The position numbers and the translations under genes were made by a program. Shown piece by piece: positions 3,532 through 62,345 of a DNA stretch of 64,000 bases. Source of the DNA: Octopus vulgaris (lineage: Eukaryota); assembly GCA_951406725.2 (NCBI GenBank), contig OX597829.1, positions 18,476,001 to 18,540,000 of the forward strand. The letters run 5' to 3'. Every line of letters starts with the position of its first letter. Positions within the stretch are counted from its first letter, which is position 1. The notes under the pieces are model-generated. The model worked only from the letters and a program-made list of their open reading frames with translations, made no database searches and was not told the DNA's origin.

Positions 3532-3921
3532 GGCACAGGAGTGGCTGTGTGGTAAGTAGCTTTGCTTACCAACCACATGGTTCCGAGTTCAGTCCCACTG
3601 TGTGGCTACTTGGGCAAGTGTCTTCTACTATAGCCTCGGGTCGACCAAAGCCTTGTGAGTGGATTTGGTAGATGGAAACTGAAAGAAGCCTGTCATATAT
3701 ATATGTATGTATGTATGTGTTTGTCCCCCCCCCCAACATCACTTGACAATTGATGCTGGTGTGTTTACGTCTCTGTAACTTAGCAGTTCAGCAAAAAGAG
3801 ACCAATAGAATAAGTACCAGGCTTACAAAGAATAAGTCCTGGGGTCGATTTGCTCGACTAAAGGCAGTGCTCCAGCATGGCCACAGTCAAATGACTGAAA
3901 CAAGTAAAAGAGTAAAAAGAG
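3532..3921 (+). mobile_element. SINE family A, full length (tRNA-derived head, internal TA/CA microsatellite)
   Basis: Head ggcacaggagtggctgtgtggtaagtagc...gagttcagtcccactg with Pol III A/B-box-like motifs; many copies in window. Confidence 0.9.
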
Positions 3922-4010
3922 TCTCAAACATGACATTCATCGACGAAACGCAGATTCATATATTAAACTGCATTCCACAGTTAAAGGCAATTAAGCTTCA
4001 ATTAGGTATT

Positions 4011-4411
4011 TACTCTTTACTCTTTTACTTGTTTCAGTCATTTGACTGCGGCCATGCTGGAGCACCGCCTTTAATCGAGCAACTCGACCCCGGGACTTAT
4101 TCTTTTTGTAAGCCCAGTACTTATTCTATCGGTCTCTTTTGCCGAACCGCTAAGTAACGGGGACATAAACACACCAGCATCAGTTGTCAAGCAATGCTAG
4201 GGGGACAAACACAGACACACAAACAAACACACATACACATATATATATATATACATATATACGACAGGCTTCTTTCAGTTTCCGTCTACCAAATCCACTC
4301 ACAAGGCATTGGTCGGCCCGGGGCTATAGTAGAAGACACTTGCCCAAGATGCCACGCAGTAGGACTGAACCCGGAACCATGTGGTTGGTAAACAAGCTAC
4401 TTACCACACAG
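4011..4411 (-). mobile_element. SINE family A, near full length
   Basis: Reverse complement of 3532-3921. Confidence 0.9.
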
Positions 4412-18323: not shown

Positions 18324-18364
<41 letters not shown>

Positions 18365-18366
<2 letters not shown>

Positions 18367-18547
18367 CGTTCGTTCGTTTTTAACATCCGTTCTCCATGCT
18401 AGCATGGGTTGGACGGTTCGACTGGGGATCTGGGAAGCCAGAAGGCTGCACCAGGCTCCAGTCTTGGTGCAGCCTTCTGGCTTCCCAGATCCCCAGTCGA
18501 ACCGTCCAACCCATGCTAGCATGGAGAACGGATGTTAAACGAACGAA

Positions 18548-18551
<4 letters not shown>
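18365..18551. repeat. Near-perfect palindrome (arms about 87 bp, 11-nt spacer) made of the family C 3' end, within (TA)n
   Basis: Left arm ends ...ggctgcacca 18453, spacer ggctccagtct, right arm starts tggtgcagcc 18465. Confidence 0.95.
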
Positions 18552-19861: not shown

Positions 19862-20685
19862 CTGAACGTGGCCGATGCCAGCGCCGCCTTGACTGGCTTC
19901 TCTGCCAGTGGCACGTAAAAAGCACCAACCAATCGTGGCCACTGCCAGCCTTCCCTGGCACATAAAAAGCACCCACTACACTCACGGAGTGGTTGGCATT
20001 AGGAAGGACATCCAGCTGCAGAAACACTGCCAGATCAGACTGGAGCCTGGCGCAGCCTCCTGGCTTCCCAGACCCCAGTCAAACTGTCCAACCCATGCTA
20101 GCATGGAAAACGGACGTTAAACGATGATGATGATGACATACAAATACATATTGTATATATGTATATATTATATATATATTGTATGTATGTATATATATAT
20201 ATCATCATCATCATCATCATCATCGTTTAACGTCCGTTTTCCGCGCTAGCACGGGTTGGACGGTTTCGACTGGGGTCTGGGGAGCTCGGGACTGCCCCAG
20301 GCTCCAGTCTAGTCTGGCAGTGTTTCTACAGCTGGATGCCCTTCCTAACGCCAACCACTCCGCGAGTGTAGTGGGTGTTTTTTACGTGCCACCTGCACAG
20401 GTGCCAGAGGGGTCTGGCATCGGCCACGTTCGGATGGTGCTTTTTATGGGGGGGGGGGCAGAAATATAGGGGAGCACCAGTGGGAGGGGTGGTTCAGAGG
20501 ACAGGTACTAGGCAAGTAGAACGTAGGATATCGAGAGAGGGGTAATGCATGGTGAAATAGCGTATTGAAGAGGGGGGTTCAAAGAGTAGACACCTATAAT
20601 GGTGGTGGGGGGTGCAGAAATATAGGGGAGCACCAGTGGGAGGGGTGGTTCAGGGGACAGGTTCTAGGCAAGTAGAACGTAGGAT

Positions 20686-20722
<37 letters not shown>

Positions 20723-20945
20723 CCTCGTCTGGCACCTGTGTTGGTGGCACATAAAAAACACCATCCAAGCGTGGTCGTTCGCCAGCCTCGCCTGGCACCT
20801 GTGTCGGTGGCACATAAAATCACCCACTATACTCTCGGAGTGGTTGGCGTTAGGAAGGGCATCCAGCTGTAGAAACACTGCCAGATCTGACTGGCCTGGT
20901 GCAGCTTCGGGCTCCCCAGACCCCAGTTGAACCGTCCAACCCATG
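19862..20945. mobile_element. Three alternating family C copies (19862-20135 +, 20202-20447 -, 20720-20945 +) around a duplicated 80-bp G-rich segment
   Basis: Direct reading of family C core on alternating strands; direct repeat about 20455-20533 / 20610-20690. Confidence 0.85.
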
Positions 20946-21094
20946 ATAGCTCCAGTCCCCTGAGGTTACTAGATTCGATGTGCATATCAACAGAAGGGCT
21001 GCTTGTTTCTCTAAATTGGTGAATTTGAGAATCCTTTCGGTGCCTCAAAAGTAACAGACTGTCTGATATGGTTAAAAATACACTTCTGCTTGTA

Positions 21095-21415
21095 GGAGAA
21101 CTCCGTTGGTTGCAACGACAAGGGTCCCAGCTGATCTGATGAACTGAACAGCTTGCTCATGAAATTAAGGTGTAAGTGGCTGAGCACTCCACAAAACACA
21201 TGTACCCTTAATGTAGTTCTCGGGGAGATTCAGCGTGACACAGTGTGTGACAAGGCTGGCCCTTTGAAATACAGGTACTACTCATTTTTTCCAGCTGAGT
21301 GGGCTGGAACAACGTGAAATAAAGTGTCTTGCTCAAGGACACACCGCACCGCCGGGAATTGAACTCATGACCTAACGATCATGAACCGAATGCCCTGAAA
21401 CACTAAGCCACGTGC
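21095..21415 (-). mobile_element. tRNA-derived SINE family D variant
   Basis: Reverse complement matches 60470-60782 (gtgtccttgagcaagacactttatttcac core). Confidence 0.8.
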
Positions 21416-21466
21416 CTGACAGGTGTAGATACCTGACAAAATGCCAATAAGGGTTGGAAATTGATT

Positions 21467-21680
21467 AGTTAGTTAGTTAGTTAAATTTTGGGCTCAAAAA
21501 GCAAAAAGCAAGGCCATGTAGGGGGACATGGAGTTATGTACAGGGTGGTGTTCATGTAAAGAGTTCAGGCCACTTGAGCTCAAGGGAGACTTTGAACCGA
21601 GCGGTCGTCGGCATCTTCACTATCTCGTCTGGCAGCTTATTCCACGGATCCGCAACCCGGATGGAGAAAGCCCCTCTCCT
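21467..21680 (-). mobile_element. CR1/L2-group LINE 3' end with (TAAC)n tail
   Basis: Minus strand RRGAFSIRVADPWNKLPDEIVKMPTTARFKVSLELKWPELFT*, the FSxRVxxxWNxLP motif; gttagttagttag tail. Confidence 0.8.
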
Positions 21681-22664
21681 TCGATTGAGATGACATCATC
21701 GCAGATAGAGCTTAAGGCTGTTCATAATTTTTTCAATGTAAGGAGGAGTAAATCTGTCATCTTTGTATAACTGCTATGTATATTTACATGTAGTAATCAT
21801 GATTTCAATTCCTGGACCGGATGGTGCATTGTGTTCTTGAGCAAGACACTTCATCTCATGTTGTTCTTTGATCACTTCAACACTTGATGCACGGTACAAG
21901 TGTTGGAGACAGTAAGCTCATGTGTGGCACAAACATTTCATCACTATGTCAAAGCAGACATAGAACTTAGCGGATCCTTCTGGCTTGTCTGTTCTTGTTA
22001 AACTGTCCAATGCATGCCAGCATGGTAAAGTGTACGATAAATGATGATGATGATGATATACACAAACAAAAAGTTTCTTTCAATTTCCATCTACCAAATC
22101 AATTCACAAGACTCCAGTCAGCCCAGAGCTATTGTAGAAGGCACTTGTTCAAGGTGCTATGCAGTAAGATTCATCTTGGAACCATGCAGTTGGGGAGCAA
22201 GATTTTTACCACATAGCCACCACGCCTGTGCCTATTTAAGCGTATAAGTGGAAACATTTTTCTTCCCTATTTTTTTTTTTTTTGCGGAATAATGAGTAAT
22301 AAGTCCCCTCCCTGAATATGAATGAATTGGTGAATTTGAGAATCCTTTCGGTGCCTCTAAAGTAACAGACTGTCTGATATGGTTAAAAATACACTTCCAG
22401 CATTCTTGTCTAGATTTCTTTCTAACCAAAAAAAAAAAAAAAAAAATGATGTGGTAAGCAATAAGCAAGGAAAATGATTCTACCAAGATCATTGTGCAAT
22501 GGAAATGTGATACAAGGGATTTCGGAATGAAAGCATGATGGCTGACTGTTGTAGGATGCTATATCACAATGACCCAGACCGAGTCTACAAGAGAAAGTCA
22601 TTCATAGCACTATTGATGATTTGTATAATGTGTGTGTATATATATATATATATGATTTGTATAA

Positions 22665-22710
<46 letters not shown>

Positions 22711-23544
22711 CAATTACATGTCTGTCTAATTGGATAGACATGTAATTGGTTGTGTGTTATAAAAACGAGGTTTAAATTAATTACATATGAATCGATAAAG
22801 CATAAGCAGTATTTTAGTTTGAGCAATAAATACACTTTAAGTATTGATAAAATTGAGGGGTGGGTGAAGAAACAAACAAAAAAAAAAAAAAAGAGAGAGC
22901 AAAAAAAAAAAAAAAAGAAAACCGTTATATTTCAAAAAAACTAAACTATCAGAGAAAACTAAAGACATGTTTGGAATCAAACTCCAAAATGTATTCAGAA
23001 AAGCTAAGAGCAATGCAGGGTTCAACAAAAAAAAAAAAAAAAAATCTGGTTGACCATACAATCAGATATACTCAAACTAAATCTATCAAATACATACAGA
23101 TACACATGTGCATAGACACACACACACACAGAGACGTGTGTGTGTGCCTTTCTCTCTTTCCCATCTCCTTCCACCATTCATTTTTCCTGCCACACTCTTT
23201 CCTATTCTCTCCTTCCTATTTCCTCCGCCTTGAATTTCCGTCTCGGCTCTCTCCAGATGAGTAGAATGGACACAAGGAAATCCGAAGAAATACAAAGAAA
23301 GTGAGAAAAGAGGGATAGGGGTGGGGAATGGGGGGGGTTAGATGGGAGAATGTAACGCAGGAAAAAAAACAAAGCAAAAAAAAAAAAATGACGGGAGTAA
23401 AAGGTTGCAAAAATAAGGTGGAAGAGGAAAAATACCAGAAAAACACTGAAAAGGAAATCTATTAGGATATTAAGAGATAGGGGACAGATTAAAGACACTG
23501 TATACTTCCATGAAGTGTTTATCCATGGAAGTTTGTACAATAGC

Positions 23545-24665
23545 AGTTCAGTGCATGTTGGAGTTCAGCTTCTGCTGTTACTAATTTGTACACTCTGTCA
23601 TGTAGCATTATACCCATGTGACACACTGTGGCAATAAATGCATGTTGCAGACTGCACTGTTACTATGTCATAACACTCTTCCATGAAGTACTTACCTGGA
23701 GGCAGTGTTTATTCATGTAGTGCAACACGGTAGTAAAGTGCATGTTGAAGTGTGCTCTGTTATGATCAATATTCTGCCATGTAGCATTCAACCATGTGAG
23801 CTTACAAGGAGACAGTGTTTTCCCCCCATGTGGCAATTTGTGATAGTAAGTGCATGTTATATTATGTTCTGTTATGATTTCTACTCTTCCATGTAGCATT
23901 TACTCATGTGAGCTTACACAAAGGCAGTGTTTACCCACGTGGCATATTGTGAAGTGTTCTGTTATAATCAATACTCTGCCATGTAGCATATAGCAATGTG
24001 AGCTTACACAGCCACAGTGTTTCCCCATGTGGTGTATTGTGGTAGTAAGTACATGCTGTAGTGTGTCACTATCTATACTCTTCCATGTAGAATCTACCTA
24101 TGAGAGATTACACTGAGGCAGTGTTTTTCCATGACTTGTATGGTGGTAGTAAGAACATGTTGTAGTATTCTGTTACAATCTGTTACTCTTCCATTTCGCA
24201 TTTATCCATGTGAGGTTACACAGTCAGTGTTTTCTCATGTAGCATATAGTGCCAGTAAGCACATGCTATAGTCTGTTCTACCACTACATTTATACACCCT
24301 GTTATGTAGCATTTATCCATGTGAGGTTACACAGTGGCAGTGTTTTTACCATGTGGCATATTGTGGTAGTAAGTGTATGTTACAGTGTTTCTGTAGTGTT
24401 TACCAATATAAGCTTACACAGAGGTGGTGTTTATCTCATATGACATATAGTGGTAGTAGGTTCATGTTCTAGTATTTCCTATTACACGCCCTGTCATGTA
24501 GCATTTACCTACATGATGTTACACGATGGCAGTCAGAACATGTTATAGTTCAATATGTTACCATACTACTTTGTACACTCTGACATGGAGTGTTCATCTA
24601 TGTGACATTGGCGTTAGTGAAGCGCCTGTTGTAGTTAGCAATATGACTACATGTACACTGTCATT
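23545..24665. repeat. Diverged tandem array, about 10 units of roughly 100-115 bp
   Basis: Recurring catgtagcattta.ccatgtgagcttacaca.aggcagtgttt...catgtggcatattgtggtagtaag..catgt. Confidence 0.85.
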
Positions 24666-24964
24666 TGGTATTTACCGCTGCAAGGTAACTGGCTGAGTTT
24701 ATGCCATCTGCTCCACTTACACATTGCTGACTGAATTATTTCTCCTCTTCTCATCCAACCCTCTCAGGCCCCACACTATCAACTAATCCTTATACTAGTC
24801 CTTCAATCCCTTTAAATTCTTTCCCTGCTTATGACATTCCTGCAGGTGTTGACTTGCAAAAGTTTGAAAGGAAGATTAATTAATTAATTAGTGGCATCAA
24901 TCTTACTTCTCTAGAAGGGCCTGTTTTGGCTATGGGCACTGTCCCATCCTTTGAGTTTAGCAAA

Positions 24965-25590
24965 TTAAACCCTTTAGCATTCAAATTACTTTGTCAAAGG
25001 TAATATTTACTTATTCACATTACCTTGAATTAATCAAGCAGTCTCTCCTAGTTTCAAGATTTCAATGACATGATTGTTTAGTTTTAGAATGACATTGTAG
25101 AATAGGTGTGAGAGACCAGATCTGGTTACTATGAACATAAAACAGGTAGAACATTTGGACTGGATATGGCTGATTTAATCCTTTACTATTCAGATTACTC
25201 TGTCAAACATATTTATTCACATTGATTTGAATAAGCTATGCATTATCTTGCAGCTTTGATATTTCAATGACATGATTGCTTATTTTAGAATGACATTGTA
25301 GGGGTGGTGTGAGAGGCAAGATCTGGCCAGTTTTAACATAAAACTGGTAGAATATTTGGGCCACATGACTGGTTTAACCCTTTAGCATTCAGATTATTTT
25401 GTCAAATGTAATGATCATTTATTCCCATTGTTTTGAATTAATCATGCGTTATTTTACAGCTTCAAGATTTCAATGATGTGATTGTTCATCTTTAGAATGA
25501 GATTGTAAGGTAAGTGTGAGAGGCTGGATCTGGCAGGTTTGAATATAAAACAAGGAGAATATTTGGGCTGAATATGACTGATTTAAATGC
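24965..25590 (+). mobile_element. Three head-to-tail copies of the TTAA-flanked MITE
   Basis: Units start at TTAA 24965, 25175, 25374. Confidence 0.8.
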
Positions 25591-25593
25591 TGT

Positions 25594-25963
25594 TGGCTGT
25601 GTGGTAAGTAGCTTGCTTACCAACCACATGGTTCCGGGTTCAGTCCCACTGCGTGGCACCTTGGGCAAGTGTCTTCTACTATAGCCTCGGGCAGACTAAA
25701 GCCTTGTGAGTGGATTTGGTAGACGGAAACTGAAAGAAGCCTGTTGTATATATATATGTGTGTGTGTGTGTGTTTGTCCCCCCAACATCACTTGACAACT
25801 GATGCTGGAGTGTTTACGTCCCCGTAAGTTAGCAGTTTGGTAAAAGAGACTGATAGAATAAGTACTAGGCTTACAAAGAATAAGTTTCGGGGTCGATTTG
25901 CTCGACTAAAGGCGGTGCTCCAGCATGGCCACAGTCAAATGACTGAAACAAGTAAAAAGAGTA
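25594..25963 (+). mobile_element. SINE family A with TSD
   Basis: Flanked by taaatg(c/a)tgttg direct repeats. Confidence 0.9.
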
Positions 25964-26414
25964 AATGATGTTGTGCTAGAACAAACCCGTCTAACCTTGT
26001 GTATGTAGCATGAATGAGAAAACATGTAAAATGATGATAACGATAATGACTTATATTTAATTAAAAAATTCAGCACAAATGAATGGAGATGTTACATAGT
26101 GAAGCCAGATGATGTAATTTTGTGTTTTCTTGATTACATTAAAAGATAGGTATGATCTAAGGAAGATTTCCTACAAGGATTCTGGCGATAGTGATAGCAT
26201 GACATCCATGTAAAATACATGTGCCACACATATAGATGTAGTGTGCATGTGTGTGTGTGTTAATTAATCAATGTAAACATATTTATGCATCTCTGTTTGG
26301 AAGTATGCGTACTTATGTGTATGTACACATGTTATCTTAATGTATCTATTAAAGTGTATACATGTGCATGTATGTCTGTGTGTTTGTACATTTATGTGTT
26401 TGCTTCTATATGAA

Positions 26415-27160
26415 TGCATACATACATACATACATATGAATACACATACATACAAACAAACATACACACAAATACGCATGCATCCATACACACACACATG
26501 CAAACATACATACATACATACAAATACGCATGCATACATACACACACATGCAAACATACATACATACAAATACGCATGCATCCATACACACACATGCAAA
26601 CATACATACAAATACACATGCATCCTTACACACACATGCAAACATACATACATACAAATACACATGCATCCATACACATACATGCAAACATACATACATA
26701 CATACAAATACACATGCAAACATACACACACATGCAAACATACATACATACAAATACGCATGCATCCATACACACACAAACATACATACATGCAAATACG
26801 CATGCATCCATACACACACATGCAAACATACATACATACAAATACGCATGCATACATACACACACATGCAAACATACATACATACATACAAATACACATG
26901 CATACATACACACACATGCAAACATACATACATACATACAAATACGCATGCATACATACACACACATGCAAACATACATACATACATACAAATACGCATG
27001 CATCCATACACACACATGCAAACATACATACATACAAATACACATGCATACATACACACACATGCAAACATACATACATACATGCAAATACGCATGCATC
27101 CATACACACAGATGCAAACATACATACATACAAATACACATGCATACATACATACATATA
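26415..27160. repeat. Microsatellite-derived minisatellite, unit about 42-50 bp (catgcaaaca(taca)n aatacrcatgcatmcatacacacaca)
   Basis: About 15 tandem units read directly. Confidence 0.95.
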
Positions 27161-27530
27161 TACAAAAGTATATACACACGTACATACATTTGTATAGGAA
27201 CATAAATACAGTAACATGTGCACATACAATCTATATGATAAAATATATATTTGTTATTTTTTTGCTTATATCCTAATTTAAAAGAAAGAAGAAAAAGAAA
27301 GAAAGCATAATTCAAAAATTAACTTGAAACACAGTGAAAAGATGACAAGAAGAAATAGGATGGTAAGGAATGGCCTACACCTAACGGAAAAGAAGGAAGT
27401 GGGCACATTCCAGAAATAACTCTTGATATGAATATACCAAAGTGAAGAACATGGGTATGAGATTTACACTAGGAAAAGGAAATCAGGAGAAAAAGAACAA
27501 TTTCTAATAGTATTCTTACTACTGCCACTG

Positions 27531-27572
<42 letters not shown>

Positions 27573-27739
27573 AAGGAGAGGAGGAAGAGAGAGGGAGAGA
27601 AAGAGGAAGAGATTGGGAAAGAGAGAGAGAGGAGAGCAAAAGAGGGAGAGAAGAAATGAGAGAGGGGTGGGGGGATGGGGATGGAGGGGGAAGGAAGAAA
27701 AAAAAGAGAGAAAGAAAGAAAGCAAGAAAGAAAGGGGAA

Positions 27740-27771
<32 letters not shown>

Positions 27772-27938
27772 AAAAGAAAGAAAGAAAGAGGTGGAAAAAA
27801 AAACCCCTTCATGATAAGTAGACTGGTTCATGTTTAAAATCTGAAATGGAAGGTTAAGATTTTAATCAGAAATCTTTGTGACACATAAGTACGCATACTT
27901 CCAAACAGAGATGCATAAATATGTTTACATTGATTAAT

Positions 27939-27974
<36 letters not shown>

Positions 27975-28317
27975 TACATCTATATGTGTGGCACTTGTAT
28001 TTTACATGGATGTGACCAAGGAAGAGAAAAATGGCAACCAGCGTGAACAGTAAAACTTGCATATTCAGGTTCAAAACTACTTTCATGAAAGCTTTGTGGG
28101 GAAACTGCATAAAAGAGAGGCATCAGATGGGGACCTAATTGTTTTTGGGACTAGGACAAAATGCTGATGTCCTACAGAAAATCATAAACAGACACAAGCG
28201 TGGCTGTGTGGTGAGGAAGATTGCTTTCCAAACCTTGTGGTGTTGAGGTCAGTCCCACTGTACCCAACATTGGGCAAAGTGTCTTCTACTAGAGCACCAT
28301 GCATGCTTGCATATGTA

Positions 28318-28533
28318 CTCTTTTACTGTTTTACTTGTTTCAGTCATTTGACTGCAGCCATGCTGGAGCACCACCCTTAGTTGAGCAAATCAACCCCAGG
28401 ACTTATTCTTTGTAAGCCTAGTACTTTTTCTATCGGTCTATTTTGCTGAACTGCTCAGTTAAGATGATGTAAACACACCAGCATCGGTTGTCAAGCAATG
28501 TTGGAGGGACAAACACAGACCAACAAACTTATG

Positions 28534-28577
<44 letters not shown>

Positions 28578-28730
28578 GCTTCTTTCAGTTTCCATCTACC
28601 AAATCCACTCACAAGGCTTTGGCCGGCCTGGGGCTATAGTAGAAGACACTAGCCCAAGGTGCCACGCAGTGGGACTGAACCTGGAACCATGTGGTTGGTA
28701 AGCATGCTACTTACCACACAGCCACTCTTG
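28318..28730 (-). mobile_element. SINE family A
   Basis: Reverse complement of consensus. Confidence 0.9.
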
Positions 28731-29375
28731 CATGTAGTGAAAATATATAGACAGTACAATGTGTAGATGTGGCTGCATGTATGTTGTTACAAGAGTTCAT
28801 ATGGAGATGAAAGAATAAATTCGAGGTCTATACATAAAAATATATTTAATTCTTCTATCGATGATAATACATGGAATCAAATAGTAGAAGAAAGTTCAGA
28901 GAAAGGAAATGTAGAACAACACTGAAGTGGTGGCTTTCAGTCATATCCGGAATAGAGAAATAGATGTACACAGCAACAACATGAATGGATCTAAGTCTAA
29001 TCGACTAAGAAGCTAAAAGCTGGGTTAGCAAGCTGTTTTTATTAATGGAACGCTAAACATTCTAGAAACATCCAAGAGAAATGTCAAGCTTCTTGAATAA
29101 TTAAGAATCATGGAAGAACCAAACTTGCAAAACAAACTTCTTAACACAACAATGCCGGTACACGTACACACACACACACAGGCATTGGCGTGTGTATGTA
29201 CACATACACACATAATAAATAAATATATATATATATGGTGCCCCAGCATGGCCGCGGCCTTCGGGCTAAAACATTTTTAAGGATTTAAGGATATATATAT
29301 ATATATATATGTATTTGTTTGTATATGTATATGGATTTAAATCTCCCAGAAACCCGCCACTTATATATATATGTA

Positions 29376-29888
29376 CTAGCAGTATCGCCCGGTGTTGCTC
29401 GGGTTTGTAAGGGAAATAACTATATAAGCATTTTTAGAGAGTTACTTCCTTTATAGATGCCAATTCGGGCTTTCTTAGCCATTTCTGTTTTGGTGTCTTC
29501 AAGCCATGAAGTCGTTGTTCTAAAAGAACGCTGGTCTCCTTGACAACGCTTTACGACGTTGATTTCCTTACACTCCCTTCCCCACAGCTTCATGAGGGAG
29601 AGAAGAAGGGGGAGAAGCAAATAGGTGCAGGTGTGACCATGGACGCCAACTCCGCCACCATTGATACACGAAAAATTATGCATTAAAATGGAATAAAAAA
29701 CGATGTTAAATTATTTTTAAAATCGTAGACTCATCATAGACGCGCGCTAATACTCAGACGGGCTCGATATGAATCACGACTATAAGATACCCGAATTTGG
29801 TTAAACTGCACCGCAAAATGTGGGAGCAGTTAGGAATCTAAATCGAAGGGGACAGACACTCACACAACTACAGTTTTATATATGTAGA
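29376..29888 (-). mobile_element. Non-autonomous Helitron
   Basis: Minus strand starts TCtacatatataaaactgtagttgtgtg and ends with hairpin cccgagcaacaccggg plus CTAG, inserted between A and T. Confidence 0.8.
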
Positions 29889-30299
29889 TATATATCCCAA
29901 AAAGAGGAAAGCTGTGTGTGTGTGTGTATTTGGTGATAAGCATATGTACTATATGTACTTTACCGAAAATTTCAAAAAAAAAAAAAAGGCTGAAAATTTA
30001 GACACACACAAACACACACACATGCAAACAAACAAAAACTACTTAAATAAATCTAACTTCATGACACGAATTTAAACTGAAGCTGTCGCATTTTTCCTGT
30101 TATTGTATATATGTTATTTATTTGACAAAACACTAACAAATATTTTACAACTCACACCCCCTACTCTCACATACTTAACATCCTTGATGAATCGATAAAC
30201 GGTTTTCACAATATGTAAACAAATTCTTTCATTTAAATTACACACACACACACATATCATTATCATCAGCGTTATTCATTTTTAAAGGTGTGGATGTTT

Positions 30300-30532
30300 T
30301 CTTATTTCCTGTTGCCCACAAGAGGCTAACATAGAGGGGACAAACAAGGACAGACAGAGAGATTAAGTCGATTACATCGACCCCAGTGCGTAACTCATAC
30401 TTAATTTATCGACCCCGAAAGGATGAAAGGCAAAGTCGACCTCAGCAGAATTTGAACTCAGAACGTAGCGACAGACGAAATACTGCTAAGTATTTTGCCT
30501 GGCATACTAACGTTTCTGCCAGATCAGCGCCT
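30300..30532 (-). mobile_element. SINE family B
   Basis: Reverse complement of consensus. Confidence 0.85.
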
Positions 30533-30825
30533 TATGGACGCTTTCTGATAACCACTGCACCTCTTATGTGTCCATAGTTTGCACTGAGCACAACCATATG
30601 GAATTTCTACCTCCACCATGTCAACATACGAAACAGTCATTTACCCAAAGGGGATTAGTGTCCTGTCTGTCACACACACACATACATTCATACAGATAAA
30701 CCATGTACATATATGTGTGCTCCAGCATGGATGTAGTCAAATGACTGAAACAAGTAATATATATTATAAAAATATATACAGGTCGTCGTTGACTTACGAG
30801 CTATCCAACTTATGACCGATTGACT

Positions 30826-31216
30826 TACTCTCTTACTTGTTTCAATCATTTGACTGTGACCATGCTGGAGCACCGCCTTTAGTCGAGCAAATCGACCCCA
30901 GGACTTATTCTTTGTAAGCCTAGTACTTATTCTATTGGTCTCTTTTGCCGAACTGCTAAATTACAGGGACATAAACACACCAGCATCGGTTGTCAAGCGA
31001 TGTTGGGGGTGGGACAAACACAGACACACAAACACACACACACATATATATATATACAACAAGCTTCTTTCAGTTTTTCATCTACCAAATCCACTCACAA
31101 GGCTTTGGTCAGCCCGAGGCTATAGTAGAAGACACTTGCCCAAAGTGCCACGCAGTGGGACTGAACCCGGAACCATGTGGTTGGTAAACAAGTTACTTAC
31201 CACACAGCCACTCCTA
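30826..31216 (-). mobile_element. SINE family A
   Basis: Reverse complement of consensus. Confidence 0.9.
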
Positions 31217-31396
31217 CGACTTCACGACAATTGACATGCCAGCTCCCAGCAACAATAATAAATAGTTGAGTTGAAATCTAATGGGTTTAATTTCTGAGAA
31301 ATTAACTCGTCTACGGATGATGTCAGCTAACAAACGCTTCTCCTAGGTTTGGTTATCGATAGCCACTGAGTTGGATGACTATCCTGTTGCGGAGAC

Positions 31397-31655
31397 ATCA
31401 TCATCATCATCATCATCATCATTTAACGTCCGCTTTCCATGCTAGCATGGGTTGGACGGTTCAACTGGGGTCTGGGGAGCCCGAAGGCTGCACCAGGCCA
31501 GTCAGATCTGGCAGTGTTTCTACAGCTGGATGCCCTTCCTAACGCCAACCACTCCGAGCGTGTAGTGGGTGATTTTATGTGCCACCGACACAGGTGCCAG
31601 ACGAGGCTGGCGAACGGCCACGCTCGGATGGTGTTTTTATGTGCCACCGACACAT
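31397..31655 (-). mobile_element. Family C
   Basis: (CAT)n tail plus reverse-complement core. Confidence 0.85.
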
Positions 31656-33298
31656 GACTGTTTGAGACTCAGAAATTTTTGTCTAACACCTGTATAAAAG
31701 CATAATGCAGAATGCTGTGTGTGAGTTTTACCTGAGAATGTACCTTAAGAATGTAAAAATATAAAACAAAGATATCTTGACCTATAGACCGACTTACAAC
31801 ACGTATCTCTACATGCACACACACATCACACACACAAACACACACACACGCGTGTGTGTGTGTGTGTGTTTGTATCTCTTTGTCCTGACATCACAAGATA
31901 GATGTAACTAACTGTCATATTTTGCAAGAACATGGAAAAATACATATTAATCGTGCCTGGTAACAGTAAGGGTTGGTAACAGGAAGGGCATCCAGCTGTA
32001 GAAAATCTGCCTCAATAAACTTCATCCAAGCCATATATGCATGGAAAAGCTGACATGATGATGATGATGAGGAGGAGGAGGAGGAGGAGAGGACGACGAC
32101 AACAACGACAATGACAACGATGTTACACATGCACTTATACACACATAAATATACACATTATTATACATTCTGGACTGCATCTAAAGAAAGACCATTTAAC
32201 TGATCGGCATAAATCATTCAGAAATATGTTCTGGCTTCTGGTTCACAGGCATGCTGTCTTCATTCTCTCGTCTTTTCTATCATTACTACTGTGCCTCTGT
32301 TCCTTGGTGTCGGCTTGTCTTCTGCTTCCTCCACCCATGCACCCTTATCTTCTCACCTCTACTCTTCTTATTATGTTTCTTGCAGCCACCCCCAACCCCC
32401 AAGACCCTGAACTAACCACTAAATCCAGTCCTTACTGTATTGGTAATACCTTTAAAAAAAACAGAAAAGTGAGAAGTGTTGTCAGTTCATTTAATATTTG
32501 TTTTTATTCTGGAAAAATTGAACTGACAAAATATTCCAAGACCCTTTTGCTGACAGAATGTGTTAAGAGAGAGAGAGAAAGAGAGAGAGGGGTAAAGAGA
32601 GAGGTGAAGGAAGAAAAAAAGAAATACAAATAGCAAAAGATAAATAAATAATTAAATAAAAAAAAAGTCTGACTGGTTTGATGATGAAGTATTTAAATAA
32701 TCCTCTTTTAATTTTGAATGACTTGACTCATTATTAATTTTGTCACCGAAAACTCCACTGGAAAAATATCACAAAGAAACTGTATGAAAGAACACTCATC
32801 ACTTTGTCAGAAGAATCCTTACTCGATCCCCCATCCATTGACAAACCCATGATAATTGAAGCATCCACTCAATCAAAAGAAACATTCCACCTACTACTGC
32901 TACTACTACAAAGATTAAATGTCGGCATTAACAAAGGTGTTGAAAGCAATCAAGAGAACACTCAATAATCTCATGATCAAATAGACGGTGGGGCAGAGAA
33001 GAAACAATGTGCTTTGAATTTAGTGGATATAGGAACTGTTTACTCGCAGAAATTGTCCCTTCTGCTCTCTGCACAATATACTTCCTCGACGTTCTCAACG
33101 GTAGAATTCTTCACTACAAAATTGCAAACAATTTTGAGTGGCAGACAACATCATCATCATCAACAGCATAAGCTTCGGTTCCGGGTCCTACTGCAGCCTT
33201 GAGCCAACCTTGTGAGTGGATTTAGCAGACAGAAACTGAAAGAAGCCCGTTGAGTACACACACACACACACACACACATATATATGTGTGTATATATG

Positions 33299-33335
<37 letters not shown>

Positions 33336-33517
33336 TCTTTTACTTGTTTCAGTCATTTGACTGTGGCCTTAGTCGAGCAAATCGACTCCAGGACTTATTC
33401 TTTGTAAGCCTAGTACTTATTCTATTGGACTCTTTGCCGAACCACTAAGTTATAGGGACGTTAACAAACTACCATCGGTTGTCAAGCAATGTTGGGGGGA
33501 CAAACACAGACACACAA

Positions 33518-33565
<48 letters not shown>

Positions 33566-34015
33566 CAGGCTTCTTTCAGTTTCCATCTACCAAATCCACT
33601 TACAAGGCTTTGATCAGCCCGAGGCTATAGTAGAAGACACTTGCCCAAGGTACCACACCATGTAAAAACCATGCCCAAACTGACATGGTGCCACATAAAA
33701 AGCACTCAGCTTTGGGGTTAGTAGCCTGCGCTCCTAACCACTACGCCATATGCCCGTGGTATGTGGCGTGGCGTAGTGTGTGTGACACATTCTAAATTAT
33801 ATATATGTATGTGTATGTACTAATTATGCCATATGCCCACAGGCATATGGCATAATTAGTAGCACTTGCCCTTTGCGGTTGTTGTTAGGAAGGACATCCA
33901 GCCATAAAAACCATGACAAAGCAGACACAGTAGCCTGGGGTAGTCTTTTTACCTGACCGGCTCCTGTCACACCATCCAACCTATGCCTGCATGGATGACA
34001 GGCGTTAAATTATAA

Positions 34016-34071
<56 letters not shown>

Positions 34072-34090
34072 TCCATATAAATGCATTTAT

Positions 34091-34151
<61 letters not shown>

Positions 34152-34164
34152 CATATAAGCATAT

Positions 34165-34830
34165 ATAAGGATTGGCTGAAAAGTTTGTAGGCTGACCAAG
34201 ATATTCTCATGGAATGTGATCAAATGAGGTTTATTTTTCAACAGTCTCCCTTGCAGTCCACACACCTCTTCCATTGGTCTTGCAGTGCTTGGATCTCATC
34301 GGTGAAGAAATTTTCATCGCTGCAATATTAATTCCCAGTCAAGTGTTTGCTCATGTTTGAGAATAGATGATAGTCAGATGGGGCTCAAATCAGGGTAATA
34401 GGAGGGTGATCAACCAGTTCAAAACTACAGGCACTCAACTCACAGCAGCCATTGAAACCAAGGTCTTGTGCGCTAGAACATTGACCCCATGAAACAAGAC
34501 CCACTTCATCAGTTTTCCTGACTACTTTGTCTTAATGGCATTTCATAACTGCCTCATCAACTTGGCATTGTACTCTTCATTGATGGTGAGGCTCTTTTGA
34601 AGATAGTCAATAAACACAATACCTTTAGTGGTCATCATTTCCCTTGCAGATGAAATGACCTTGGCCTTCTTTGGAGCAGGTGAGAAGAGATGTTTCCACT
34701 ACATGGATTGTCGCTTTGTCTCTGGCTCAAAGTTATGAACCTAACACTCATCCTGGCTTAGTAAACATCCAAGAAAATCAGCCGGATCTGCCTCAAACTA
34801 TGCTAGATTTTCTAGTGATGTGATCACTTT
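34165..34830 (-). mobile_element. Mariner transposase catalytic-domain relic plus right end
   Basis: Minus strand gives ...FELVDHPPYYPDLSP... (YSPDLAPSD motif) and ...FFTDEIQALQDQWKRCVDCKGD.. across frameshifts; TIR-like ggctgaaaagttt next to TA. Confidence 0.85.
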
Positions 34831-34984
34831 TGCACTGTTAATAAAGTTGGAGCATCATCTCCTAAAGTAGCAATCACATCAACATAAATGTCCCTGGGGG
34901 GCTAAACCCTTTTTCTAGACGTACTTGAAAACACCAAGATATCAAACTTTGTCATTTTCCTTCAAGAGAAGTTGCTACTAATTA

Positions 34985-35360
34985 TGCCATATGCCTGTGG
35001 GCATATGGCGTAATTAGTACATACACATACATATATATAATTTAGAATGCGTCACACACACACACACACTACGCCACGCCACATACCACGGGCATATGGC
35101 GTAGTGGTTAGGAGCGCAGGCTACTAACCCCAAGATTCCAAGTTCAATTCCAAGCAGTGACACCGTCGTCATCGTCATCATCATCATCAAAAAATACCTT
35201 ACGAATGAGAACCCAGGTTCAAAATTTCCCCAAGACACCTGAAGAAGGCTGGAGGGTATATCAGCCAAAATGTTGTGTTAGCAACAAACAAGACGAGGAC
35301 AAATATCTGTCAAATGTAAATAATGTACATAATTCCTCATCTCTTAAATACAGAACTGTA
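34985..35360 (+). mobile_element. tRNA-headed short retroposon with Penelope-like tail and decayed hammerhead motif; 13-bp TSD
   Basis: Head gggcatatggcgtagtggttaggagcgcaggctactaacc...gttcaattcc (35090-35160); acac CTGAAGA aggctg..cagcc aaaa tg tt gtgt (35235-35278); ttgctactaatta at 34972-34984 and 35361-35373. Confidence 0.7.
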
Positions 35361-35529
35361 TTGCTACTAATTAGTTTTGAAGTTTTCTCTGAACAGTCGG
35401 ATGTCAGTTTACTCTGAAAGAAACAATGCAGTTATTAATAAGAAGAGTTGAAATTAATGCATGCAAGATTTCACAGTTCTAGCATCACTTTAGGATGCTA
35501 GTCAGCCTATGAACTTTTCAGCCCACCCT

Positions 35530-42899: not shown

Positions 42900-43187
42900 A
42901 AAATAAATATAAGAGAGTGGTCACTATATGGCTCACTCTAGCACCAGTTAATCCAAAAGGTTTCAACCACAAAAATACATGTTTCCCATGAAAGTCAGTA
43001 CGATTGTTAGCTCACACGGACAGGGCAAATAAAAAATATTTTTTATTTTTTATTTTTATTTGCCCTGTCCGTGTGAGCTAACAATCGTACTGTTTTCATG
43101 GGAAACATGTATTTTTGTGGTTGAAACCTTTTGGATTAACTGGTGCTAGAGTGAGCCATATAGTGACCACTCTCTTATATTTATTTT
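42900..43187. repeat. Near-perfect inverted repeat, arms about 135 bp, short AT spacer
   Basis: aaaataaatataagagagtggtcac...ggacagggcaaataaaaa / tttttatttgccctgtcc...gtgaccactctcttatatttatttt. Confidence 0.95.
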
Positions 43188-43383: not shown

Positions 43384-43625
43384 GGAGTAAACATAAATGT
43401 GAAACAAGGTGGAAAAAAAAGAGTACTCAAATACCAGTGGTAGAGTAATATGCTTTATTTAAAGCAGCAGAAAATTCTACAAAACCTGTTTGATTACATT
43501 GATCTCAGTCTATCACTGGTACTTAATTTATTGAGTGTCAATTCAGTCAGCTTGCCACCCAATAATAATAATAATAATGGTTTCAAGTAACAGGTTTTGT
43601 AGAATTTTCTGCTGTTTTAAATAAA

Positions 43626-43671
<46 letters not shown>

Positions 43672-61738: not shown

Positions 61739-62037
61739 AAAGAGAGAGAGAGAGAGAAAGAGAGAGTGGGAAAGAAAGAGAGAGTTTGGAGGGGTATATT
61801 ATCCAAGCAGATACTGTGGTGGCTCCCGGCTAAGTTCCAGTATAAGGCTAACCACTTTCGATCAGTATTTAACGTCTATGACTACAATTAATTGTCAATC
61901 ATTCTGTGAATTCTTCCAGAGCAAATACTCCAGACTGTGTGTATATATATATATATATATATATTACATAGAGTAATATAAATCCTCCTATATTTTCTTT
62001 TACTCGAAGCCAGATACTTTTCAGTACCCACTCTTGT

Positions 62038-62069
<32 letters not shown>

Positions 62070-62130
62070 TTATTTTTATATATATATATATATATAAATA
62101 AATAAATATATATATGTGTGTGTGTGTGTA

Positions 62131-62345
62131 CAAGAGTGGGTACTGAAAAGTATCTGGCTTCGAGTAAAAGAAAATATAGGAGGATCAGTTAATTATGATT
62201 TCATCCAACATATTCCCCTCTCAGATTCACACACTTATTGCAGCCAATCTTCAGTTTTTTTAAGCCCTGTGAAAGAACTTGGAATCTTTGGCCTCCGACC
62301 AGACATTTTGCAATAACCTTGAAGCCAGGAACTTCTCAGCAACCC

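What the first reader, a model, noticed from the sequence alone, without database searches (positions are those of the whole stretch)
20999..35133. Recurrent kilobase-range copy-paste of local DNA with short target duplications: candidate undescribed mutational process
Seen: three independent events within 15 kb share one architecture. A 70-150-bp piece nearly identical to sequence 1.1-1.6 kb away is inserted between 6-8-bp direct repeats (21014-21086 from 22325-22397; 27881-28013 from 26202-26320, inverted; 33712-33864 from 34973-35133, inverted). Several fold-back palindromes next to (TA)n (18365, 42900, 43453, 61982) add to the pattern. Established: polymerase-theta end joining and replication template switching make templated insertions, but usually shorter and closer; LINE/Penelope endonuclease plus RT makes TSDs. 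Inference: a nick-primed mechanism copying nearby DNA or the nascent intronic RNA. It would keep creating unique-sequence inverted repeats, the raw material for ADAR editing structures in cephalopods.
Basis: partly seen in the sequence, partly recalled or inferred. Interest (0 to 1): 0.75.

Follow-up and report, generated by a model that had tools for sequence, protein, structure and literature searches.

The report
Local DNA-repair copy scars in octopus
Three short stretches of this animal genome are near-identical copies of DNA lying 1.1-1.6 kb away, likely patched in while broken DNA was being repaired, a process already described in vertebrates rather than a new kind of mutation.

Summary
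The three donor/copy pairs are real (73, 133, 153 bp; 1.1-1.6 kb apart; one direct, two inverted; each full-length in only two places in the genome). One is bridged by contigs of an independent run. The shared architecture is not: the third 'target duplication' fails a host-repeat test, and in 160 random 10-kb stretches 20 similar pairs occur (median gap 1.26 kb) with no excess of flanking repeats (2 of 20 versus 2.2 expected). Size, distance, microhomology, filler and an occasional target duplication match repair-mediated duplications (Pace et al. 2009: median 147 bp, peak about 1.2 kb, 6 of 39 with a duplication), so the process is described. No poly(A) tail or other retrotransposition mark is present; RNA templating was untestable (no host gene found). 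The (TA)n fold-backs are a separate matter, mostly ends of repeat families with Penelope-type layout. Inverted copies supply about 3% of nearby inverted-repeat bases, so the ADAR argument is weak. Open: whether octopus has more such events than vertebrates (9-13 per Mb here, method not comparable). The scan filed similar repair copies before in other genomes.

The parts
20999..21006 (+). E1 left copy of 8-bp target duplication (CTGCTTGT)
   Evidence: chance 0.007 per site
21007..21013 (+). E1 7-bp filler; equals the reverse complement of 21093-21100 less one base (possible snap-back synthesis)
   Evidence: chance of such a match 0.044
21014..21086 (+). E1 inserted copy, direct, 72 of 73 identical to donor; last base shared with right target copy (1-bp microhomology)
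   Evidence: bridged by X4 contig 20943-21183
21086..21093 (+). E1 right copy of target duplication; ends exactly at the boundary of an older SINE-like repeat
   Evidence: 24 of 24 other copies begin at the same position
21094..21419 (-). Older high-copy SINE-like repeat beside E1 (about 89.6% identical to its best relatives; orientation and right end read from the sequence, tRNA-like boxes recalled)
   Evidence: (depth)
22325..22397 (+). E1 donor, unique sequence
   Evidence: bridged by X4 contig 22075-22600 and X11 contig 22273-22413
26202..26320 (+). E2 donor, unique sequence next to a minisatellite
27877..27882 (+). E2 left copy of 6-bp target duplication (TGTGAC); last 2 bases are microhomology with donor
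   Evidence: chance 0.028 per site
27881..28013 (-). E2 inserted copy, inverted; CA run 14 bases longer than in the donor
28011..28016 (+). E2 right copy of target duplication; first 3 bases are microhomology with donor; right flank single-copy
33712..33864 (-). E3 inserted copy, inverted, interrupting an older SINE-like repeat with no net gain or loss of host bases; the AGCACT pair (33701, 33861) is host sequence plus donor microhomology, not a target duplication
34973..35133 (+). E3 donor: two small hairpins, microsatellite, and the first 48 bp of a high-copy repeat (35086 onward)

Best explanation
These are likely repair-mediated duplications: scars where a broken DNA end in the germline copied 70-150 bases from a template about a kilobase away and then rejoined the other end. 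Shown: the copies, their direction (E3 interrupts a host repeat; E1 and E2 sit between short repeats), microhomology of 1-4 bases and a 7-base filler at the junctions, and a genome-wide class of such pairs concentrated under 2 kb. Inferred: the 3' end invades a nearby duplex (sister or same chromatid, either strand, hence both orientations) at microhomology, a polymerase extends it briefly, the strand is released and joined by microhomology-mediated end joining (synthesis-dependent strand annealing or polymerase-theta type; the enzyme is not identifiable from sequence). Where the break was staggered by 6-8 bases and filled in, a short target duplication results (E1, E2); where it was not, none does (E3).
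For: Pairs and junctions. Two places only. E1 in an independent run. Local excess: 46 within-stretch pairs versus 0.39 expected. In 160 dispersed 10-kb stretches, 20 short sharp-ended pairs (15 after dropping 5 doubtful ones), median gap 1257 bp, median length 92 bp, 11 direct and 9 inverted, 16 of 20 under 2 kb (P 0.0003 against uniform). Pace et al.: donors within 5 kb in 824 of 1136, peak about 1200 bp, median 147 bp; of 39 proximal junctions 31 had microhomology, 25 filler, 6 a target duplication, 0 poly(A); an inverted example is given. Staggered breaks giving small duplications: PMC8355091 abstract. Templated fillers: PMC2943611 abstract. E1 is younger than the adjacent SINE (1 of 73 versus 10.4% divergence, P 0.003), so it is not part of that insertion.
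Against: No empty allele was seen for any event; direction of E1 and E2 rests on their flanking repeats. E2 and E3 were not checked in reads. E1's target ends exactly at a SINE boundary, which hints at a retroelement-related nick. None of the 20 sampled pairs passed the automated host-continuity test, so some may be terminal repeats of rare transposons or remnants of larger duplications; the true rate may be well under 12-16 per Mb, which would make three events in 15 kb a real hotspot (3 expected genome-wide at 3 per Mb, 0.1 at 1 per Mb). The 5 doubtful pairs were dropped by eye.
Confidence: 0.78

Rival explanations
1. Retroelement-nick variant: an endonuclease of an active LINE or Penelope-like element makes the staggered cut, retrotransposition aborts, and the free end copies nearby DNA (by host polymerase or by the reverse transcriptase). 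Same product as repair-mediated duplication but with target duplications more often than in vertebrates.
For: 6-8-bp duplications at E1 and E2 (chance 0.007 and 0.028 per site) and one more in the neighbouring 200 kb (L172); E1 target abuts a SINE end; many recently active LINE, SINE and Penelope families are reported in Octopus vulgaris (PMC13282606); Pace et al. link the rate of these events to L1 activity.
Against: No excess of duplications among 20 sampled pairs (2 observed, 2.2 expected at 6 or more bases; 5 versus 6.5 at 5 or more; none at 7 or more; upper 95% bound 32%); E3 has none; the two targets share no motif; no element sequence was co-inserted; L1-associated templated insertions come from within 15 bp and are fused to L1 (bioRxiv 10.1101/2024.08.27.596794).
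Confidence: 0.13
2. One reading: a nick primes reverse transcription of the nascent intronic RNA in cis, inserting a cDNA of nearby sequence.
For: RNA-templated patches at breaks are reported (templated sequence insertions, PMC5110952); target duplications at two sites.
Against: No poly(A) tract at any of six junctions; donors lie on both sides and in both orientations; class 1 insertions have poly(A) and class 2 come from distant sites; no host gene could be identified (0 of 136 frames above a Pfam cut-off).
Confidence: 0.04
3. Mixed origins: the direct pair E1 is the remnant of a 1.4-kb tandem duplication later mostly deleted, and the inverted pairs arose by replication template switching without a break.
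For: A tandem duplication followed by deletion gives the same E1 letters; contigs of X2 and X20 run from the donor's left flank through the 73 bp into the acceptor's right flank; longer local duplications are common in the sample.
Against: Needs two events at E1; the X2/X20 contigs are also what graph simplification gives when both short unique links beside high-copy sequence are dropped, and X4 shows the window's arrangement; template switching and break repair cannot be told apart from sequence, so this is partly the same model.
Confidence: 0.05

Closest known systems
Proximal repair-mediated duplications (Pace, Sen, Batzer, Feschotte 2009, PMC2671141; read parts 1-5 of 8 and 9 passages, supplements not read)
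   Same: At least 50 bp, single donor within 5 kb, distance near 1.2 kb, 73-153 bp against median 147, microhomology and filler, no poly(A), target duplication in a minority, inverted cases occur.
   Different: Here a mollusc-type genome, not a vertebrate; apparent density 9.5-12.8 per Mb for 50 bp or more against 0.62 per Mb of repeat DNA in human, but by a different and looser method; no outgroup empty site shown.
'Doublets' of Thomas et al. 2004 (paper not held; known only from Pace's discussion, and recall)
   Same: Short local duplications in unique DNA.
   Different: Recalled as mostly same-strand; here 9 of 20 sampled pairs are inverted.
Templated sequence insertion polymorphisms (PMC5110952; 12 passages)
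   Same: Copied patches at breaks; class 2 has microhomology and filler; class 1 has target duplications.
   Different: Donors are distant; class 1 needs poly(A) and a TTTT/A site, absent here.
L1-associated templated insertions (bioRxiv 10.1101/2024.08.27.596794; passages only, supplements closed)
   Same: Under 250 bp of genomic DNA copied at a retroelement nick.
   Different: Template within 15 bp and fused to an L1 insertion.
Penelope-like element insertion layout, Naiad/Neptune (PMC8557442; 12 passages), for the fold-backs only
   Same: Inverted truncated copy at one end, (TA)n target, extension on one side only.
   Different: Reverse transcriptase or GIY-YIG coding sequence was not sought here; the 18364-18550 fold-back is of a SINE end and its centre is single-copy.

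Membership tests
Repair-mediated duplication (Pace 2009) | Insertion of at least 50 bp found at only one other place | tested here: met
   two full-length places each; search scores only best candidates, and 48 bp of E3 are repeat-derived.
Repair-mediated duplication (Pace 2009) | Donor more than 50 bp and less than 5 kb away on the same chromosome | tested here: met
   Gaps 1238, 1560, 1108.
Repair-mediated duplication (Pace 2009) | Microhomology, filler or deletion at the junctions | tested here: met
   E1 1 bp plus 7-bp filler; E2 2 and 3 bp; E3 short match at the right junction.
Repair-mediated duplication (Pace 2009) | No poly(A)/(T) tail of 5 bp or more | tested here: met
   0 of 6 junctions.
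Repair-mediated duplication (Pace 2009) | Empty site shown by host repeat or by an orthologue | tested here: inconclusive
   Met for E3 by host family; not shown for E1 or E2 (no joint listed).
Class 1 templated insertion / target-primed reverse transcription | Target duplication of 5 bp or more | tested here: inconclusive
   Present in E1 and E2, rejected in E3, no excess in 20 sampled pairs.
Class 1 templated insertion / target-primed reverse transcription | Poly(A) tail and TTTT/A site | tested here: not met
   junction print-out.
Class 1 templated insertion / target-primed reverse transcription | Donor is transcribed and copied from RNA | not testable with these tools
   No host gene found; no RNA run was listed.
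Penelope-like insertion (fold-backs) | Inverted copy of a repeat-family end beside (TA)n, on one side | tested here: met
   32 of 46 sampled fold-backs have (TA)5+ at an end (null 10%), 30 at one end only; 30 of the 32 have arm matches elsewhere in the sample (counted by hand); a 20-mer of the 42900 arm has 1098 exact matches, often in 534-bp tandem and inverted arrays.
Penelope-like insertion (fold-backs) | Reverse transcriptase plus GIY-YIG partner or hammerhead ribozyme | not tested
   Not sought for the fold-back families; Rfam gave no hammerhead or tRNA hit in 33600-35500.

The most novel reading that the evidence does not exclude
Octopus germlines make proximal templated copies at ten or more times the vertebrate density, about 25,000-35,000 per genome and nearly half inverted, because abundant LINE and Penelope endonucleases keep making staggered cuts; the subset with 6-8-bp target duplications marks those cuts.
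Probability: 0.15. Interest if true: 0.55.

Novelty: new member of a known kind. Interest (0 to 1): 0.22.

Why it matters
As it stands: three clean examples, plus a first rough density, of a known repair scar in a lineage for which my searches found no report. It would matter more if a like-for-like scan showed a cephalopod excess, because that would tie break rate or repair choice to this genome's retroelement load. For RNA editing the contribution is minor: inverted kilobase-range copies make up 2.7% of bases in nearby inverted pairs, and transposon fold-backs (about 29 per Mb) are more frequent and tighter hairpins.

Tried and rejected
Empty allele of E1: in run X11 (organism C) the donor is covered and the copy has depth 0, but no joint was listed, so this is not used as evidence. 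An exact search for the predicted empty junction found 0 matches, as expected for a single-copy site. Reads for E2 and E3: not obtained. X2/X20 'going-back' contigs: read as probable graph collapse, not as a second allele. Idea that copies are captured at SINE ends during insertion: several sampled pairs abut SINEs, but those examined were long direct repeats round a SINE (L045, L112, L152) or later SINE insertions (L110), and E1 is younger than its SINE. First scan and exact 22-mer scan gave overlapping lists; the final scan misses E2, so its sensitivity on the known events is 2 of 3. Of 55 locus-specific pairs in the dispersed set, 34 were dropped before counting (over 300 bp, gap under 500 bp, or homologous flanks) and two rows were merged. 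Host gene: 136 of 137 candidate frames scanned, none above a Pfam cut-off; only a weak mariner-type transposase fragment. Rfam on 33600-35500: only microsatellite noise. DNA search with the 42900 arm returned nothing, not even itself, explained by its high copy number. Cross-species rate: no other animal genome was available. Thomas 2004 not held. One search was uninformative; one search returned 0. PMC12350158 and PMC11226609 (passages) only confirm that short inverted duplications with microhomology are a known variant class.
Full report
Observation. All three pairs are at the stated coordinates. E1: 21014-21086 equals 22325-22397 at 72 of 73 bases, same strand. E2: 27881-28013 is the inverted copy of 26202-26320, with 3 substitutions and 14 more bases in a CA run. 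E3: 33712-33864 is the inverted copy of 34973-35133, with 2 substitutions and 8 fewer bases in a TG run. Searches of the window's own genome G000 (2.8 Gb) return two places for E1 and E2 and two full-length places for E3; these searches score only the best candidates. The end of the E3 donor is the start of a high-copy repeat, but the 113 bp before it match in full only at the acceptor.

Reality check. In Logan contigs of run X4 (organism B, a different label from the best holders) one contig bridges the whole E1 acceptor (20943-21183, 3 differences) and another the donor (22075-22600), so E1 is not an assembly error and is shared across labels. X2 and X20 hold the acceptor's right junction in contigs that run from the donor's left flank; I read these as collapsed graphs. 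E2 and E3 have no read support here.

Junctions. E1: 8-bp repeat, 7-bp filler that is the reverse complement of the 8 bases just right of the site less one (chance 0.044), 1-bp microhomology. E2: 6-bp repeat overlapping the copy by 2 and 3 bases, which are microhomologies with the donor. E3 lies inside a SINE-like repeat, which gives a direct test: family spacing is 26 in 50 of 57 copies; removing only the copy leaves 26, the duplication model 19 (0 of 57; and arithmetic on its coordinates); the flank-projection test gives net 0 in 5 of 10 comparisons, against -7 predicted. The host copy is diverged, but both tests agree: no duplication at E3. No junction has a poly(A) tract.

Genome-wide sample. 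I took 160 dispersed 10-kb stretches and 20 neighbouring ones. In the first 120, 46 locus-specific pairs lay within stretches against 46 between 7140 stretch pairs, 0.39 expected: local duplication is general in this genome. In all 160, 55 pairs passed the specificity filter; 21 rows, 20 events, were 40-300 bp, 0.5-5 kb apart and sharp-ended, 15 after dropping 5 doubtful ones by eye. Median gap 1257 bp, 16 of 20 under 2 kb (P 0.0003), 11 direct and 9 inverted, 11.7-15.7 per Mb edge-corrected (9.5-12.8 for 50 bp or more). Flanking repeats are at chance level: 2 of 20 at 6 or more bases (2.2 expected), 5 at 5 or more (6.5), none at 7 or more. At these rates a 64-kb window holds about one event and 150-340 tiles of 15 kb in the genome would hold three; the neighbouring 200 kb hold 2. 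Against this: none of the 20 passed the automated host-continuity test, so the sample may include terminal repeats of rare transposons and the true rate may be lower, in which case this cluster is a hotspot. Zero host-verified events in about 0.69 Mb of repeat DNA (43% repeat share measured on 120 stretches) allows up to about 4 per Mb and is compatible with Pace's 0.62 in human.

Mechanism. Shown are copy, direction for E3, microhomology, filler, both orientations, donors on either side, and a distance scale near 1.2 kb. Inferred is repair synthesis: a 3' end invades nearby duplex DNA, is extended 70-150 bases, released and joined by microhomology; fill-in of a staggered break yields the short duplication (small duplications from staggered breaks: PMC8355091, abstract; templated fillers dependent on polymerase theta: PMC2943611, abstract). 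E1 abuts the end of a SINE-like repeat in register with 24 of 24 relatives but is much younger than it (P 0.003); a retroelement nick is possible, not shown. RNA templating could not be tested: no host gene was found.

Comparison. Pace et al. 2009 (PMC2671141, parts 1-5 of 8) describe 824 human events: at least 50 bp, median 147 bp, donors within 5 kb with a peak near 1200 bp, microhomology, filler or deletion at junctions, target duplications in 6 of 39, no poly(A), present in all 10 vertebrate genomes tabulated, attributed to synthesis-dependent strand annealing, and they cite the 'doublets' of Thomas et al. as the same class. The three events meet four of five defining features; the empty site is shown only for E3. 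Their supplementary figure of empty sites was not read. Searches for a cephalopod report found none (0 papers; 19 papers, none on this by title or abstract start); the library lacks most subscription journals.

Fold-backs. The sample holds 46 fold-back palindromes in 1.6 Mb; 32 have (TA)n at an outer end (null 10%), 30 of them at one end only, and 30 of the 32 have arms found elsewhere in the sample, often ending at the same family position. The 43453 fold-back shares its end with 7 sampled copies; the 42900 arm belongs to a family with 1098 exact 20-mer matches in 534-bp tandem and inverted arrays; 4 other copies span the centre of the 61982 one. This is the layout described for Penelope-like elements (PMC8557442, passages), and earlier notes of this scan read such structures the same way; I did not test for the enzymes. 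Only the 18364-18550 fold-back of a SINE end has a single-copy centre. They are not evidence for the kilobase-range process.

ADAR. In 120 stretches 51,618 non-satellite bases lie in inverted pairs within 5 kb at 80% identity or more; the curated inverted copies supply 1,378 of them, 2.7%; in the window E2 and E3 supply about 10%.

Verdict. Real, recurrent, and a new instance of a known process. Confidence 0.78 for generic repair-mediated duplication; interest 0.22. The one open and testable point is the rate relative to other animals.

Noticed in passing
dispersed sample L045-L164, L185-L224; window 42900-43187, 43453-43626, 61982-62185: Fold-back palindromes at about 29 per Mb, 32 of 46 beside (TA)n on one side, mostly ends of several repeat families (Penelope-type layout); a larger source of tight hairpins than the finding itself.
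   Followed up: partly
window 42900-43187: Arm belongs to a family with 1098 exact 20-mer matches, arranged in 534-bp tandem units that flip orientation within arrays (retrozyme-like layout; ribozyme not tested).
   Followed up: partly
window 18364-18550: Near-perfect fold-back of a SINE end with (TA)n on both sides and a single-copy centre; a locus-specific event, possibly a template switch resolved in self-complementary TA tracts.
   Followed up: partly
window 35086-35300; L008-L011, L018: High-copy repeat whose start is a small hairpin; 5 of 13 fetched relatives carry a head-to-head inverted copy directly upstream. tRNA-like and hammerhead-like motifs are recalled impressions; Rfam gave no hit.
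   Followed up: partly
L152 8539-9178; L112 7292-7759; L045 966-1278; L152 7363-7903: Direct repeats of 53-119 bp flanking single SINE-like or inverted-end elements, up to 100% identical: unusually long target duplications.
   Followed up: no
L100 6341-6595 and 7343-7597: 255-bp, 100% identical inverted copy of part of one SINE placed 747 bp away in another repeat; the youngest-looking event of this class in the sample.
   Followed up: partly
L172 1135-1211 and 3295-3371: 77-bp direct copy 2.1 kb away with a 6-bp flanking repeat overlapping the copy end, like E2, about 30 kb left of the window.
   Followed up: partly
window 20451-20690: 84-bp near-tandem duplicate (gap 72) of unique GC-rich sequence inside a repeat, ending in (TA)n.
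   Followed up: no
window 34160-34870: Decayed mariner-type transposon fragment between E3 acceptor and donor (weak Transposase_1 match at 34546-34698, below cut-off; extent estimated).
   Followed up: no
window 3545-4411: Head-to-head inverted pair of SINE-like copies, about 870 bp, 80% identical.
   Followed up: no
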